From the IMG/VR virus record IMGVR_UViG_3300034073_002120: a DNA stretch of 64,000 nucleotides. One strand, given 5' to 3'. The DNA comes from a virus (Duplodnaviria > Caudoviricetes). The notes beneath the pieces were generated by a model. The model ran no database searches. It saw only the letters and a list, made by a program, of their open reading frames with translations, and was not told the origin of the DNA. Position numbers and translations under genes: made by a program. Of the stretch, positions 49,535-57,471 are shown piece by piece (within the stretch, counting starts at the first letter, position 1; each line of letters opens with the position of its first letter).

Positions 49535-50806
49535 TTATTTGCTTAAAAGGAACAATGCTTCTTCTGCTTCTTGTTGATTTTTAATTTTTGGGTCTTTATA
49601 CATATCAACTTTGTATCCTCTTAAAGCATTTGATAAAAATATCATATACTTAGGATGACCTAATTTCTCTTCTAACGCAGATAATGAATCATAAAACTTT
49701 TGTTCGTTTCCATTATTCATTTTTTCTGCAGTTTTATATTCATCTTTGTGATTATTGATATAAGATGCTTTAGAATCAGAATAACCATGCGCTGCTTCGT
49801 TTACTGATTCGAATAATCTAACTGAAAGAATAACATCATTACCGATTTTTAAGTTTCTTACTTTATTTCTTTCTAAATCGTATGATGGATTTATAGTTTT
49901 TGCTATAGCAATCACACCATTCTTAATAAAGTGTGGTTGAATACCTGAATAATTATCATCTCTAAACATAAATACATTTTCTGGATTATCCTTAGAAATT
50001 TTAATTAGTTTCATTAAACCTGTTTTACCGACATAACATCCACCTTCACATTTAGTTCCACCATAGGTTTTACCTTTTATAAATGATGTTTCATTTACTG
50101 ATTTTTCTTCTTTAATATATTTTACAGATGAATTTGAACCATCGGTAAAAAATACATTATCACCATCAATCATTTTTACTTTTCGTCTAAATGGTCCTTT
50201 TTTCCCCAATGCACCTTCCCAGTGTGGGTTGTCAACTTTAACCATTTGACCAACTTTGATTTCTTCGTTTACCGAATTACATCCACAATCAGTAGATTCT
50301 TTAATTGATTCATTTGTAGGTACACAATTGGGAACTTCTTTACCATCTTTCATTTTCATCCCAACTTGCTTGTATCCATCCCAACAAGGAGATGCTTCTT
50401 TAATACCCAAACGTTCTTTCATTTGGTCTTCGGAAATTTCACCAATTTTATAGTAACGAGATAGGATATGTCCCATATCTTCGTATAATCCATGTAATCT
50501 TTGGTCTAAGTTTTTTGCTTCAATTGCTACTTTATCAAATTGACTACCTAATTTCGCCAATTCACTCATATTTCTTTTCACAGTTTGTGCATCAAACCAA
50601 TCATCGGATTCGTTTACCGCTAATTCTCTAGCTGCTTCAGTAATTCCACCTAAAACTTCTGCGATTTCAGCAATATCAGATTTTCTATCCATCATTTCTT
50701 GATACTTGTTGTATGTAGAAACGATTTCTAAGAAATGTTTTTTTACTTCATTCGAAAATTTCTTTGGTTCTTCACCTTCTTTAACTATATTTGATAAACG
50801 TATCAT
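49535..50806 (-). CDS. Modular head-cluster protein (putative internal protein)
   Basis: MIRLSNIVKE start; modules separated by IKE/SVNE; CWDGY...VPNCVP module. Confidence 0.75.
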   Translation of the reverse strand: MIRLSNIVKEGEEPKKFSNEVKKHFLEIVSTYNKYQEMMDRKSDIAEIAEVLGGITEAARELAVNESDDWFDAQTVKRNMSELAKLGSQFDKVAIEAKNLDQRLHGLYEDMGHILSRYYKIGEISEDQMKERLGIKEASPCWDGYKQVGMKMKDGKEVPNCVPTNESIKESTDCGCNSVNEEIKVGQMVKVDNPHWEGALGKKGPFRRKVKMIDGDNVFFTDGSNSSVKYIKEEKSVNETSFIKGKTYGGTKCEGGCYVGKTGLMKLIKISKDNPENVFMFRDDNYSGIQPHFIKNGVIAIAKTINPSYDLERNKVRNLKIGNDVILSVRLFESVNEAAHGYSDSKASYINNHKDEYKTAEKMNNGNEQKFYDSLSALEEKLGHPKYMIFLSNALRGYKVDMYKDPKIKNQQEAEEALFLLSK

Positions 50807-50824
50807 TCTCTCTCCTACTATTAT

Positions 50825-51784
50825 TTATTTTTGAAATGCTTTGATGATTCCTTGTGCAAATTTGTTTCCCGGTTTACCAACAATTGCAGTTGATATATCC
50901 ATTCTATTACTTAATGTCTTTGGACCTTTGATTTTAAGGTATGCTAATAATTTTCTATCATCTATGTTATTATCATCGATAAATTTCTTAACAGCTTGAG
51001 TTCTCAACCCAGTTAAGTTAGCAATTTCTTCTACTTCTGATTCATTCACCATTTTAGTTAATGAAATTCTACCTTCTTTGTTTAAAGCCTTCATATAAGG
51101 TTTATTATCAAATATAGATTGAATTGTGTCTGCCTCTTTATGGAATCCATTCATTCTTAATGTAAATGCAATACCATCTGCAGCTTGAACACCATCCCAA
51201 CCTGATGATTGTGATACGTTTCTTCCAAATTCATGTGCGTTATCATCACCATTCCAATATTCCGAACTATCTACACCATTGGTTCTTATATCTGCCATCT
51301 TTTCTTTATACTTAGGGTCATCCATTTTAGGATAATCCACTCTCTTAGCCCATTCAGGCTTTCCTTCAATCTTTGAAATCAATTCTCTCGCCTCATCATG
51401 AAAGTTTGCATCAGTTAAAGCCTCAACTGCTGCTTTTATCATTGTTTTCTTATATCCATCATTACCCAACTTTTGTGGAGTAATTCCAAATTCTTCTGCT
51501 TTCTTTTTAGCCTCTTTATTTACTTGAGGATTACCTGGTCTTTTCTTTGGTTGTGTTGCAGTTGGTTCTGATTTTGGTTCACCGGATGGTTTATTAAAGA
51601 TATTCACCTTTGGGGTTTCACTACCTTTAGAATTGGAATCTCCTTTATCTTTTATAGGATTATGAGTTCCTGCTTTGATTGCATTATCTCTACTATCTTT
51701 TGATTTGAATACAGATGTTTTACCACTTGCTTTGTTTGTAGCAGTAAATGTTTCTGCTTCTAAAAGTAAATTTTTTAATTTCAT
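50825..51784 (-). CDS. Modular head-cluster protein (putative internal protein)
   Basis: MKLKNLLLE start; TFTATNKASGKTSVFKSKDSRDNAIKAGT module shared with 53030..53689. Confidence 0.75.
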   Translation of the reverse strand: MKLKNLLLEAETFTATNKASGKTSVFKSKDSRDNAIKAGTHNPIKDKGDSNSKGSETPKVNIFNKPSGEPKSEPTATQPKKRPGNPQVNKEAKKKAEEFGITPQKLGNDGYKKTMIKAAVEALTDANFHDEARELISKIEGKPEWAKRVDYPKMDDPKYKEKMADIRTNGVDSSEYWNGDDNAHEFGRNVSQSSGWDGVQAADGIAFTLRMNGFHKEADTIQSIFDNKPYMKALNKEGRISLTKMVNESEVEEIANLTGLRTQAVKKFIDDNNIDDRKLLAYLKIKGPKTLSNRMDISTAIVGKPGNKFAQGIIKAFQK

Positions 51785-51802
51785 TTCGTTATTTCCTTAT
51801 TA

Positions 51803-55240: not shown

Positions 55241-55300
55241 TTGTTAATCCTTATTTTGATAGACTCAAAATTTCTGTATATAAATATTAAAAATTATAAG

Positions 55301-57037
55301 TTAAATGAATTTTTCCGTATCATCGATAATATTAGTCTCATCTAACATATCTTTTGTTTCGTGTAGATATTTACGTTTTGATGAAATCCCATTGATAAAA
55401 CTTTTAGCTTTATGTTCTGATGTTCGACTACGTTTTCCTGTTCTTTCATTATCACCTAATGGGTCTCTTCCATAAGGATGTTTATCTTTACCATATGTAT
55501 TACCTTCTCGTGGTCTTCCCACTTTAGCACTAAGTTCAGTTTTTAAATTTTCTAAACTTTCTTCAACATCGGTTTGTTGTGGTGGGTTTGCAGGGTCATT
55601 ACCATCATTTTCAATTGAATTATAACGGAATGTATCTTTTAAATCTTCTACAATCTTACCACGTTGTTCTGTTTGTTCCGTTTCAGACATTTTGAAAATA
55701 TTATCGTAAATCCAATCTTTTGACAACATTTTTAAAGATTGCATATCAGTAGCCAAACGAATCTTTTCAGACCATAAGTTTACTTTTTCTTGCTCATAAA
55801 TTGTTGAAGGATTTACTAATTGAATTTCAAAATTAGCCATTTCTGAATCCTGTATTCCATTACCATATAAATGTATTACACCGATTCTTGATAATTCTGA
55901 TATAATTGTTCTTTGTATTCTTTCGATTGTTCTAGCGAAACGAACGTCTTCTGCTGCAAGGGTTGCTTTACCATTTACATTTTCTTCATATCCCAAATAT
56001 GCTTTTGGAATTTTTAATGCAGCAAATAATTTACCCTTTAAGTATTCAATATCTTCGGTTGCCGTGTACTCTAAACCACTTAGGTTTTCGATGTTAGTTC
56101 CACTATCACCACCTCTTACCGGTAGATAAAAATCTTCCGTTAAGTTTTGCATATTATATTTTAAGTTATAATCACCAGTATCCTTATTTACAAAAGGAAC
56201 TTTTTTCATCTTACTGATGATTTTTTGCATGTAGTTGTCAACTTCGGTAGGATTGATATTACCTATATCGATTTTAAACACTCTTTTTTCTGGTGCTCTC
56301 ATAATACGATGGATTAACATCGCATCTTCCATTAAACTCAATTGTTTCCATAATCTTCTACCATTCTCAACCATAGATTTACCATAAGGTAACCAGTTAG
56401 TATCTGATAATAGACGGAAGTGAGCCATTTCAAAATTATCATAATCTACTTTACCAATAGCATCATCCATTACTCTGAATTTAACCATATGTGGATTGGT
56501 TGGGTCATGTCCCTCAATTCGTTCGGTATTATATTGTGAATATGGAGTAACATTTACAATACCCTTACCCTCTGCTATTTCTAATCCCAAAAAGAAATCA
56601 CCATACTTACACATATTGCGAACCCATGGCCAAAGAGTAAATTCGATATTTAAAATATCATAGTATAAGTTTTCTAATAATTCTTGAACACGTGGATTAT
56701 CAGAACGAATAATCAACATTTCACCGAATTCATTTTTTAATGTAGATTCATCAGCGTAAATATCTAATGCAGATGCAATAATTGGGTCTTGGTCCATTGC
56801 ATCATAATCTCTAAATACTTCTCTACGAACTTGTTGATACGCCATTGATTGTGCACCACCAGCTTGTTCGTAAAAAGATTTTTGTAGTTTTGTGTATCTA
56901 TCTCTTAATGATGATAGGTTAGTTTCTTGTCTTTCATCAAAATCAAAAACTTTTCTTTTACCATCGGGCGTAACAGTAACGATAGCCTTTTGGGAAAAGA
57001 GTTTTCTTAACCTACCAAAAAATGAAGTATCTGCCAT
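55301..57037 (-). CDS. Portal protein (gp20-like)
   Basis: QLSLMEDAMLIHRIMRAPEKRVFKIDIGN, EDFYLPVRGG, LFAALKIP. Confidence 0.95.
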   Translation of the reverse strand: MADTSFFGRLRKLFSQKAIVTVTPDGKRKVFDFDERQETNLSSLRDRYTKLQKSFYEQAGGAQSMAYQQVRREVFRDYDAMDQDPIIASALDIYADESTLKNEFGEMLIIRSDNPRVQELLENLYYDILNIEFTLWPWVRNMCKYGDFFLGLEIAEGKGIVNVTPYSQYNTERIEGHDPTNPHMVKFRVMDDAIGKVDYDNFEMAHFRLLSDTNWLPYGKSMVENGRRLWKQLSLMEDAMLIHRIMRAPEKRVFKIDIGNINPTEVDNYMQKIISKMKKVPFVNKDTGDYNLKYNMQNLTEDFYLPVRGGDSGTNIENLSGLEYTATEDIEYLKGKLFAALKIPKAYLGYEENVNGKATLAAEDVRFARTIERIQRTIISELSRIGVIHLYGNGIQDSEMANFEIQLVNPSTIYEQEKVNLWSEKIRLATDMQSLKMLSKDWIYDNIFKMSETEQTEQRGKIVEDLKDTFRYNSIENDGNDPANPPQQTDVEESLENLKTELSAKVGRPREGNTYGKDKHPYGRDPLGDNERTGKRSRTSEHKAKSFINGISSKRKYLHETKDMLDETNIIDDTEKFI

Positions 57038-57048
57038 ATTTTATTATT

Positions 57049-57471
57049 TTACCATTTTCTGCAAGACCAATATCTAGCTTTTGTTCTTGGACCTGGTTGG
57101 TCACAATTATGTCTTGCTCTAAAAGATTTTCTTCTTTCAGGATTATTTTTCTTAATGTTCATTCCCGGTTGACCGAAATTTACTTTAACTACTTTTCCTG
57201 TCTTTGGGTTTTTAACATAAACTTTAAACTTCTTAACATCACCTTGCATTGGTTTACCCAATTTCACTTCTCTACCTTGATATTCCGCTTCGTAAACACA
57301 ATTACAATTTGCTTCTTGTAATTCGGTTGTGTAAGATTTTAGAAAATTTAAAAAATCTTCTTCATCTTCATCTTCCACATCTAATTCATCGTAATCCAAA
57401 AAATTGTGTTCTGGTTGGTCAAATGGATAATCTTCCACTTCCTCTTTGATTATGTTTTTTAACTTTATCAT
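57049..57471 (-). CDS. Conserved protein: acidic N-half, basic Cys-containing C-half
   Basis: MIKLKNIIKE start; EAEYQGREVKLGKP...RRKSFRARHNCD...ARYWSCRKW. Confidence 0.8.
   Translation of the reverse strand: MIKLKNIIKEEVEDYPFDQPEHNFLDYDELDVEDEDEEDFLNFLKSYTTELQEANCNCVYEAEYQGREVKLGKPMQGDVKKFKVYVKNPKTGKVVKVNFGQPGMNIKKNNPERRKSFRARHNCDQPGPRTKARYWSCRKW

What the first reader, a model, noticed from the sequence alone, without database searches (positions are those of the whole stretch)
49535..57471. Shared N-terminal tag and protease-site-bounded modules: a capsid cargo-loading system
Three head-cluster genes start MIRLSNIVKE, MKLKNLLLE and MIKLKNIIKE, and the protease starts MKNLLIE. T4 internal proteins use a ~10 aa capsid-targeting sequence removed by gp21 at (I/L)-x-E (established). 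These proteins are strings of unrelated modules joined at SVNE, SINE, IKE and LTE sites (several in 49535..50806, 53030..53689 and 53689..54390). Inference: variable polyproteins are loaded into the prohead and cut into separate cargo peptides for injection, making an evolvable anti-defence or host-takeover payload.
Basis: partly seen in the sequence, partly recalled or inferred. Interest (0 to 1): 0.75.

Follow-up and report, generated by a model that had tools for sequence, protein, structure and literature searches.

The report
Phage head polyproteins with cut-site linkers
A large uncultured T4-type phage marks several head-module proteins with a shared ten-residue leader and strings small unrelated modules together with a fixed Glu-Ser-Val-Asn-Glu joint that fits the cutting rule of its own head protease, so the modules are probably loaded into the capsid and cut apart, though no cutting or packaging has been measured.

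Summary
Three head-cluster genes share the leader M-I/K-K/R-L-x-N-I/L-I/L/V-x-E. S[VI]NE occurs 6 times in the window, all in three head proteins (0.05 expected).

In more than 80 related contigs, leaders of this kind head at least 31 unrelated protein bodies. ESVNE is the commonest 5-mer of the variable head proteins, found in 81 independent contexts. Homology between relatives breaks exactly at it.

The phage has a T4 gp21-type (S77) protease. Upstream of conserved modules, P1 Glu and P3 Ile/Val/Leu are almost invariant, as in the T4 rule L/I-x-E. AlphaFold puts the leader and the sites in low-confidence linkers between folded domains.

The joint is fixed at silent DNA positions (GAATCAGTAAACGAA), and DNA identity switches from about 95% to about 30% at its edges, so it is also a recombination joint. 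The conserved N-terminal modules are acidic and the swapped cassettes are basic.

Cleavage, packaging, injection and any anti-defence role are untested, and no module has a recognisable function.

Notes of this scan report the same kind of linker polyprotein, with other linkers, in at least 53 other genomes. I found no published description.

Verdict: a new variant of the T4 capsid-targeting / internal-protein system.

The parts
57049..57471 (-). p140: leader (res 1-10), acidic spacer (res 11-61, net -18), basic domain (res 62-140, pI 10.6, net +17)
   Evidence: family alignment A2 shows E61 and A62 invariant
57442..57471 (-). N-terminal leader MIKLKNIIKE of p140
57289..57300 (-). CVYE61|A62 junction before the basic domain; in relatives it reads [VI]-[NYFT]-E|AEYQG
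   Evidence: P1 Glu in 20/20 distinct contexts
55301..57037 (-). Portal protein, T4 gp20 family (context)
   Evidence: Portal_T4 E=1e-65
53689..54390 (-). p233: conserved acidic N-module, a variable middle cassette, and the conserved basic C-module (KRPVNRWLELK...)
54178..54192 (-). DEVNE71|A joint in p233
53953..53967 (-). ESVNE146|G joint in p233 (GAATCGGTAAACGAA)
53030..53689 (-). p219: conserved acidic N-module ending RAGKKADESINE, then two basic cassettes
53387..53401 (-). ESINE101|L joint in p219, followed by the 56-aa module also found after the tag of p319
53204..53218 (-). ESVNE162|A joint in p219
52255..52848 (-). Prohead protease, T4 gp21 / Peptidase_S77 family; N-terminus MKNLLIE|T homologous to T4 MNEPQLLIE|T
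52339..52362 (-). Protease C-terminal PMNE|SVNK, conserved as P[MV]NE|SVN[KR]; aligns with T4 gp21 PKEITE|S; candidate autocleavage site
   Evidence: the cleavage itself is inference
50825..51784 (-). p319: leader MKLKNLLLE (51758-51784), the shared TFTATNK module, a helical middle part, KMVNE248|S (51041-51055), and a basic C-module
49535..50806 (-). p423: leader (50777-50806), helical hairpin N-domain, CWxGY..PNCVP mini-module, and three cassettes
50609..50623 (-). LAVNE66|S, in the loop between the two long helices of the p423 N-domain (pLDDT <50 at 65-68)
   Evidence: P1 Glu in 22/22 contexts upstream of DDWFD
50396..50407 (-). GIKE137|ASPCW junction (pLDDT <50 at 135-139)
50264..50278 (-). 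NSVNE181|E joint in p423
50090..50104 (-). KSVNE239|T joint in p423
49796..49810 (-). ESVNE337|A joint in p423 (GAATCAGTAAACGAA), in a low-confidence linker (335-338) between two well-folded domains
47876..48967 (-). Acidic scaffold-like protein in the position of T4 gp22; 20 [ILV]-x-E sites, including a conserved STINE (context)
46222..47841 (-). Major capsid protein, gp23 family; candidate propeptide sites VLLE52|N and LLDE61|A near the position of T4 Glu65 (context)
59825..63973 (-). Giant mosaic protein that shares modules and joints with the tagged polyproteins of relatives; probably the same class (outside the finding's coordinates)

Best explanation
These are capsid-core-addressed polyproteins of a distant T4-type myophage.

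Shown:
- A shared N-terminal leader (M-I/K-K/R-L-x-x-L/I-L/I/V-x-E) heads otherwise unrelated head-module proteins.
- Their bodies are strings of small modules joined by E-S-V/I-N-E followed by Ala or Gly.
- Leader and joint are interchangeable upstream boundaries of the same modules.
- The joint is fixed at the DNA level, and homology between relatives breaks exactly at it.

Inferred, by analogy with T4 gp21, the capsid targeting sequence (CTS) and the internal proteins:
- The leader, and the conserved acidic first modules, take the chains into the scaffolding core of the prohead.
- The gp21-type protease then cuts after each aliphatic-x-Glu, removing the leader and freeing the modules.
- The small basic cassettes (50-100 aa, pI 9-10.6) stay with the DNA as internal proteins and are probably ejected with it. 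The acidic carrier parts are cleared like scaffold fragments.
- The 15-base joint also serves as micro-homology for recombination, which lets relatives insert, delete and reorder cassettes and keeps the joint uniform.

My confidence step by step: cleavage at the sites about 0.75; targeting by the leader about 0.55; retention and ejection about 0.45; an anti-defence role about 0.25.
For: Protease family. T4 rule and CTS. T4 short propeptides read from the genome (gp24 MAKINELLRE|S, gp22 MLKEQLIAE|A, gp21 ..LLIE|T).

Leader: it matches 97 of 938 N-termini but only 3 of 5421 internal Met positions. It heads 31 independent bodies, all but one or two encoded in the head cluster. The upstream DNA is unrelated and synonymous codons vary, so selection acts on the protein.

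Joint:
- ESVNE is the top 5-mer, 104 occurrences.
- Density is 3.5-3.8 per 1000 aa in the p219/p233 families and 0 in portal.
- 81 sites have both flanks unrelated, and the conservation is sharply bounded.
- With anchors defined only downstream, P1 Glu is found in 21/22, 20/20, 42/42 and 22/22 contexts and P3 is aliphatic, while P2 varies.

Equivalence of leader and joint.

Shuffling:
- Flank pairs at the joint are 242 discordant against 230 concordant. 25 aa away the counts are 35 against 376.
- Close homologues differ by whole cassettes.
- DNA identity changes from about 95% to about 30% at the motif edges.

Silent-site fixation: TCA 64/81 (p=1e-10), GTA 61/63 (p=4e-11), AAC 54/81 (p=1e-4) against a context-matched background.

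Structure: the leader and the sites lie in low-pLDDT linkers between folded domains.

Charge pattern. Spread: 1282 homologues of p423; at least 119 IMG/VR stretches carry the exact 17-mer, 130 of 131 in frame.
Against: There are no proteomic, structural or genetic data for this phage or any relative, so cleavage, packaging and ejection are all inferred.

The leader has no sequence similarity to the T4 CTS MKTYQEFIAE.

The major capsid protein's likely propeptide site is LLDE|A, not ESVNE. Protease specificity alone therefore does not explain the fixed P5, P4 and P2 residues.

Some distant homologues of the p423 N-domain lack the leader.

Several first modules and the p140 basic domain are conserved across the clade, which fits structural or assembly roles as well as payload.

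No module has a recognisable function or fold.

The AlphaFold model of p423 has low overall confidence (mean pLDDT 62), and residues 165-238 are unresolved.
Confidence: 0.6

Rival explanations
1. Processed core or scaffold accessories, not payload. The proteins enter the prohead and are cut at the same sites. The fragments are assembly aids or space-fillers that leave the capsid before or during DNA packaging, as T4 gp22, gp67 and gp68 fragments do. Nothing functional is delivered to the host.
For: The genes sit where T4 has gp67/gp68 and next to the scaffold gene. In T4 most core fragments are expelled. The first modules are conserved, acidic and helical. No module resembles an enzyme or a known inhibitor.
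Against: The downstream cassettes are basic (pI 9-10.6) and fold as compact domains, like T4 internal proteins and unlike scaffold debris. Their rapid turnover between close relatives is unexpected for assembly parts. The p140 basic domain also exists as a stand-alone gene in unrelated podophages.
Confidence: 0.22
2. Uncleaved multidomain virion or accessory proteins. ESVNE is only a flexible linker and recombination joint maintained at the DNA level. The shared N-terminus is a docking peptide that is never removed.
For: Silent positions of the joint are fixed and recombination breakpoints coincide with it. This could be explained without any protease. P5, P4 and P2 are more conserved than the T4 rule requires.
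Against: Where the joint departs from ESVNE (IKE|A, VYE|A, INE|A, ITE|A, LLE|G), exactly P3 aliphatic and P1 Glu are kept while the DNA differs. The N-terminal leaders end in the same P3-x-Glu although their codons vary. P1' is small (Ala/Gly in 48 of 81 sites), as at T4 Glu-Ala bonds. The phage encodes the matching protease.
Confidence: 0.12
3. The N-terminal similarity is a by-product of translation-start constraints in an AT-rich genome (Lys/Ile/Asn-rich starts) or of chance. It is not a functional tag.
For: The genome is 32% G+C, and many ORFs start with Lys-rich sequences. One probable false match exists outside the cluster (44976-45203, MKLKEFYLE).
Against: The pattern matches 10% of N-termini but 0.06% of internal Met positions. 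It is confined to head-cluster genes and always ends in aliphatic-x-Glu. It is replaced by internal [ILV]-x-E when the same module sits inside a chain.
Confidence: 0.03

Closest known systems
Phage T4 internal proteins IPI, IPII, IPIII and Alt, with the capsid targeting sequence (CTS) removed by prohead protease gp21 (Mullaney & Black 1996; reviews PMC3012670, PMC9026906)
   Same: A roughly 10-residue N-terminal leader is shared by otherwise unrelated proteins and ends in aliphatic-x-Glu. The protease is of the gp21 family. The products are small and basic. The gene set is diverse and fast-changing, with only the leader conserved. In T4 the CTS-coding DNA of ipII and ipIII is identical over 30 nt, much as the joint DNA is fixed here.
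   Different: The leader sequence is unrelated to MKTYQEFIAE. Here many modules are concatenated in one chain through a repeated, nearly invariant five-residue joint, whereas each T4 IP is a single module behind its CTS. The genes lie inside the head-gene cluster rather than elsewhere in the genome. Packaging and injection are shown for T4 and are untested here.
T4 prohead core proteins gp22, gp67, gp68 and the 10-residue propeptide of vertex protein gp24
   Same: The gene position is the same (between portal and protease, or protease and scaffold). There are several L/I/V-x-E sites per chain. The N-termini are short and helical; T4 gp24's MAKINELLRE|S resembles MIKLKNLLxE|.
   Different: No sequence homology was detected (PHROGs and Pfam empty). 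The T4 proteins are not mosaics of swappable cassettes.
Inner-body and ejection proteins of giant phages phiKZ, 201phi2-1 and SPN3US, processed by gp21-like proteases (PMC5694885, PMC10052503)
   Same: Many head proteins are cut after Glu at a short motif. Propeptides carry several sites. Identical N-termini occur on diverged paralogues (SPN3US gp53/gp54). The cargo is ejected with the DNA.
   Different: Those propeptides are long (more than 100 residues), the motif is A/S/G-x-E, and the proteins are not chains of unrelated mini-modules with one fixed joint. No DNA-level fixation of the site has been reported there.
Viral polyproteins cut by a virion protease (retroviral Gag/Gag-Pol, picornaviruses)
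   Same: One translation product is assembled into the particle and then cut at short consensus sites into separate functional proteins.
   Different: There is no evolutionary relationship. Here the modules are optional cassettes exchanged between genomes at the cut-site DNA.

Membership tests
T4-type CTS / internal-protein system | The phage encodes a gp21-family (Peptidase S77) prohead protease together with gp20 portal and gp23 capsid protein | tested here: met
   Pfam S77 E=5.3e-28, Portal_T4 E=1e-65, Gp23 E=7.5e-79; PDB 5JBL E=4.3e-21
T4-type CTS / internal-protein system | A short (10-20 aa) N-terminal leader shared by otherwise unrelated proteins | tested here: met
   Three genes in the window; 97 ORFs and 31 independent bodies in relatives
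T4-type CTS / internal-protein system | The leader ends in L/I-x-Glu, the gp21 cleavage rule | tested here: met
   The leaders end VKE, LLE, IKE in the window and [LIVMFY]-x-E throughout relatives. Only the motif was tested, not the cut.
T4-type CTS / internal-protein system | Sequence similarity of the leader to the T4 CTS MKTYQEFIAE | tested here: not met
   The T4 CTS was confirmed in the T4 genome. The window leaders share only the terminal aliphatic-x-Glu and are closer to T4 gp24's MAKINELLRE.
T4-type CTS / internal-protein system | The leader is necessary and sufficient for incorporation into the prohead core | not testable with these tools
   Needs fusion and packaging experiments
T4-type CTS / internal-protein system | The processed proteins are present in mature heads and are ejected into the host | not testable with these tools
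   No virion proteome found for this clade
T4-type CTS / internal-protein system | The mature products are small basic proteins | tested here: met
   Downstream cassettes are 45-98 aa with pI 9.3-10.6. The conserved first modules are acidic, and the last p423 module is near neutral (pI 7.1).
gp21-type cleavage site (internal joints) | P1 Glu and P3 aliphatic conserved independently of the surrounding sequence, with small P1' | tested here: met
   Logo from 81 independent sites; logos from downstream-only anchors
gp21-type cleavage site (internal joints) | The site lies in an exposed, flexible segment between folded domains | tested here: met
   AlphaFold pLDDT <50 at 1-17, 65-68, 135-139 and 335-338 of p423 and at 1-26 of p140. 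The sites at 181 and 239 lie in an unresolved stretch.
gp21-type cleavage site (internal joints) | Actual hydrolysis by the phage protease | not testable with these tools
   Needs mass spectrometry or an in-vitro assay

The most novel reading that the evidence does not exclude
The ESVNE joint is a dual-purpose element. At the protein level it is the cut site that releases each cassette inside the capsid. At the DNA level its fixed 15 bases are the recombination joint through which phages of this clade trade cassettes. If so, the phage carries a built-in exchange system for capsid-delivered proteins, a phage counterpart of integron-like cassette arrays. Notes from this scan suggest it is general among uncultured T4-type phages, with a different joint sequence in each lineage.
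Probability: 0.4. Interest if true: 0.82.

Novelty: new variant of a known kind. Interest (0 to 1): 0.68.

Why it matters
T4's capsid-targeted internal proteins are the classic example of proteins injected with phage DNA to disarm host defences. They have been treated as a peculiarity of the T-even phages.

This finding shows an elaborated form of the same logic in an abundant environmental clade. That clade comprises the bS21-encoding phages predicted to infect Bacteroidetes (called Bacteroidetes phages below), found in lake and sea samples, and has over a thousand homologues in metagenomes.

Here one gene can carry up to five or more swappable modules, and the cut site itself appears to drive the swapping.

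If the cuts and delivery are real, three things follow:
- a large untapped catalogue of small injected proteins, which are candidates for anti-defence or takeover factors;
- a simple sequence rule for finding them;
- natural design rules (leader plus joint) for loading several foreign proteins into T4-type capsids.

A cultured relative, Flavobacterium phage immuto, makes this directly testable.

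Tried and rejected
- **Module function by sequence.** Pfam on whole proteins and on ten excised modules, up to E=1, gave nothing credible. PHROGs gave only unknown-function families for the CWxGY mini-module and the p140 basic domain.
- **Protein atlas.** Only uncharacterised viral clusters came up, plus weak TPR-like structural neighbours for p319 at TM 0.2-0.25, which is not meaningful.
- **Fold searches.** For p423, BFVD and AFDB clusters returned only uncharacterised phage proteins. 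For p140, PDB Foldseek found nothing at E<=0.001. Its weak rows include Cren7/Sac7d-like small DNA-binding barrels at E about 0.6, which is a lead only. VIA-align wide gave a best Z of 2.4.
- **Whole genome.** None is held for this window, so I could not check the leader on early genes.
- **HSP end-point analysis.** It gave only a 2.3-fold enrichment near sites, because BLAST ends are fuzzy. The flank-concordance and DNA-identity profiles were much sharper.
- **Module clustering.** Single-linkage clustering of cut modules collapsed into one large family, because not all joints match [ST][VIL]NE. I did not use it for module counts.
- **Literature.** No phage paper contains ESVNE. No paper combines prohead protease, polyprotein and internal proteins. 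No virion proteome turned up for immuto or Mel-JY01.
- **Conserved 5' cassette.** I rejected the idea that the leader belongs to a conserved promoter/RBS cassette, because the upstream DNA is unrelated.
- **2A-like or intein-like self-processing.** I considered it and dropped it. This was judged by eye and not tested: the motif bears no resemblance to either.

Full report
**What the window is.** The window is AT-rich (about 32% G+C), and every long ORF lies on the - strand. The head module is T4-like:
- Large terminase: 57519-59105.
- Portal: 55301-57037 (Portal_T4, E=1e-65).
- Prohead protease: 52255-52848 (Peptidase_S77, E=5e-28; PDB 5JBL T4 gp21, E=4e-21).
- Acidic scaffold-like protein: 47876-48967.
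- Major capsid protein: 46222-47841 (Gp23, E=7.5e-79).
- A phage bS21 gene: 49174-49476.

The nearest named genomes are Flavobacterium phage immuto and Microcystis phage Mel-JY01, at about 67% nucleotide identity over a fifth of the region. IMG/VR holds more than 600 contigs with a protease 81-98% identical. The clade matches the bS21-encoding phages of Chen et al. 2022 (PMC9723584), which are predicted to infect Bacteroidetes; that paper notes variable hypothetical genes here but nothing more. The window's own contig is 261,829 bp.

- The three leaders and the protease start are as described.
- Among all 2145 pairs of N-termini in the window, the tag pairs are in the top eight. The other top pairs are tail-fibre genes with a shared N-terminus.
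- S[VI]NE occurs six times in 20,038 residues, all in three head proteins. The expected count there is 0.05, and no shuffle out of 2000 reaches six.

**The leader in relatives.**
- Of 938 non-redundant N-termini in the fetched loci, 97 match the leader pattern. Only 3 of 5421 internal methionines do.
- The 97 fall in the families of p140, p319 and p423, and in small unlabelled ORFs, most of them between protease and bS21/scaffold.
- They precede 31 mutually unrelated bodies.
- The DNA upstream of the start is unrelated and synonymous codons vary, so the constraint is on the peptide.
- The protease's own MxxLLIE|T is conserved in 81 of 83 relatives and matches T4 gp21's MNEPQLLIE|T. It is a family feature, not a borrowed tag.
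- T4's known short propeptides look similar, notably gp24's MAKINELLRE|S.
- The T4 CTS MKTYQEFIAE is present at ipII and ipIII with identical DNA.

**The joint in relatives.**
- ESVNE is the single most frequent 5-mer in the variable head proteins, with 104 occurrences. It is ahead of any conserved-domain word.
- Its density is 3.5-3.8 per 1000 residues in the p219 and p233 families, 0 in portal and 0.08 in terminase.
- After removing sites that share either flank, 81 independent contexts remain. Their logo is E(66)-S-V(63)/I(18)-N-E followed by A(34)/G(14)/D(8), with no conservation outside it.
- Anchors defined only on the downstream module avoid selecting for the motif. With them, P1 Glu is found in 21/22, 20/20, 42/42 and 22/22 distinct contexts and P3 is aliphatic. 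P2 varies (N, K, T, S, Y, F).
- This is the T4 gp21 rule L/I-x-E with a small P1' residue.

**Leader and joint are equivalent boundaries.**
- A 56-residue module follows the leader in p319 and follows ESINE in p219 (43% identity, E=2e-11).
- Across relatives, modules that follow the leader in one protein sit inside another protein just after an aliphatic-x-Glu. Examples are MIKLQTLLNE|ESPCWKGY against CGCNSVNE|STPCWDGY, and MKLKNLIPE|GFVVMYK against SESVNE|GKSFVVMFK.
- In the p140 family, an invariant [VI]-x-E|A precedes the basic domain behind a variable acidic spacer.

**Shuffling.**
- At the joint, flank pairs are discordant 242 times and concordant 230 times. Twenty-five residues away the counts are 35 and 376.
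- Homologues of p423 that are 70-90% identical in shared parts differ by whole cassettes inserted, lost or reordered between joints.
- 1282 database proteins match p423 at E<=1e-5, with lengths of 246-726 and coverage of 29-100% among the 120 listed.
- At the DNA level, identity between relatives goes from about 95% to about 30% at the last base of the 15-nt motif. In the reverse case it goes from about 30% to 98% at the first base.

**A DNA-level signal.**
- The joint is GAATCAGTAAACGAA in 72 of 116 ESVNE instances.
- In the 81 independent sites, silent positions depart from a context-matched background. TCA is used 64/81 times against 0.44 expected (p=1e-10). GTA is 61/63 against 0.61 (p=4e-11). 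AAC is 54/81 against 0.45 (p=1e-4).
- The exact 17-mer occurs in at least 119 IMG/VR stretches. Of 131 matches, 130 are in frame in ORFs of 100 residues or more, and 102 of 111 new loci carry homologues of this head module.
- The simplest reading is frequent recombination within the joint, which keeps it uniform. An RNA-level role was not excluded.

**Structure and charge.**
- AlphaFold on p423 gives a beads-on-a-string model (pTM 0.29). Confidence is low at 1-17 (leader), 65-68 (AVNE|S), 135-139 (IKE|A) and 335-338 (ESVNE).
- Between those segments lie folded units: a helical hairpin at 19-118, a beta hairpin at 145-163, an alpha/beta domain at 241-334 and a helical domain at 339-423. Residues 165-238 are unresolved.
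- In p140, residues 1-26 are disordered, a helix spans the acidic spacer, and the basic domain at 61-140 is compact.
- The conserved first modules are acidic (pI 4.4-5.3). The downstream cassettes are basic (pI 9.3-10.6), and p140 pairs a -18 spacer with a +17 domain.
- No module has a recognisable family or fold.

**Reading.**
- The protease family, the strict P3/P1 pattern, the small P1' residue, the linker position and the interchangeability of leader and joint make protease processing of core-addressed chains the best explanation.
- T4 and the giant phages provide experimental precedent for each step.
- Nothing here shows that cuts occur, that fragments stay in the head, or what they do.
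- The conserved acidic first modules may be core or carrier parts, comparable in position to T4 gp67/gp68. The basic cassettes are the plausible internal-protein payload.
- The giant gene at 59825-63973 shares modules and joints with tagged proteins of relatives, so it probably belongs to the same class.

**Novelty.**
- I found no publication describing this arrangement.
- Notes of this scan describe the same kind of linker polyprotein, with other joint sequences and also with silent-site fixation, in at least 53 other genomes. Those notes are unchecked leads. My results for this genome were obtained independently and agree with them.
- I class it as a new variant of the T4 CTS / internal-protein system.

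Noticed in passing
window 35808-38552, 31747-35649, 31084-31722, 28631-29365 (- strand): Four tail-fibre-like genes share the N-terminus MAQIIK.(K/R)RGS. It is probably a common baseplate-attachment segment on different fibre bodies, and it is the only other group of shared N-termini in the window.
   Followed up: no
window 57052-57288 (- strand): The basic C-terminal domain of p140 is about 75% identical at the nucleotide level over 246 nt to hypothetical genes of Pelagibacter podophages (Aegir, Kolga, HTVC111P). In many viral clusters it is a stand-alone protein of 95-106 aa. Its fold has no significant match; weak rows include Cren7-like DNA-binding barrels.
   Followed up: partly
window about 50312-50395 (- strand; p423 residues 138-165): The mini-module SPCWxGYxxxGxKxKxGKxVPNCVP, often followed by a CGC-rich stretch before the next joint, is 78-86% identical in DNA over about 70 nt to genes of T4-like cyanophages. 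It is 62% identical to a 47-aa cellular protein labelled 'SSU ribosomal protein S31P' in AFDB. It is a promiscuous Cys-containing module of unknown role.
   Followed up: partly
window 52339-52362 (- strand): The protease C-terminus carries the conserved motif P[MV]NE|SVN[KR]. It is joint-like, but Lys/Arg stands where the joint has Glu. It aligns with T4 gp21 PKEITE|S. It could be the C-terminal autocleavage site (after NE) or a pseudo-substrate.
   Followed up: partly
window 59825-63973 (- strand): The giant mosaic protein (only DUF5661 is significant in Pfam) contains modules that in relatives sit directly behind the leader (YxHVGYGKYKEKGKEKD). Its C-terminal GGAYGHM domain is preceded by ESINE in relatives and by IINE here. 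It is likely another capsid-addressed polyprotein.
   Followed up: partly
window 45549-46112 (- strand): This ORF starts MDIIYKLTSPNGKVYIGRT..., which looks like a GIY-YIG homing endonuclease. It lies just downstream of the major capsid gene, as seg genes do in T4.
   Followed up: no
window 49174-49476 (- strand): The phage bS21 gene lies on the same strand as the head genes here. Chen et al. 2022 describe it on the opposite strand in their genomes.
   Followed up: no
L001 (Flavobacterium phage immuto) 16625-19150, 19210-19968, 9580-9801: The cultured phage immuto has comparable leaders (MKKLIRIVE|A, MKKSQLRQIIKE|A, MKKSQIVKAVQE|V) and ESVNE/ESLNE joints in an 841-aa protein. It could serve as an experimental model for this system.
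   Followed up: partly
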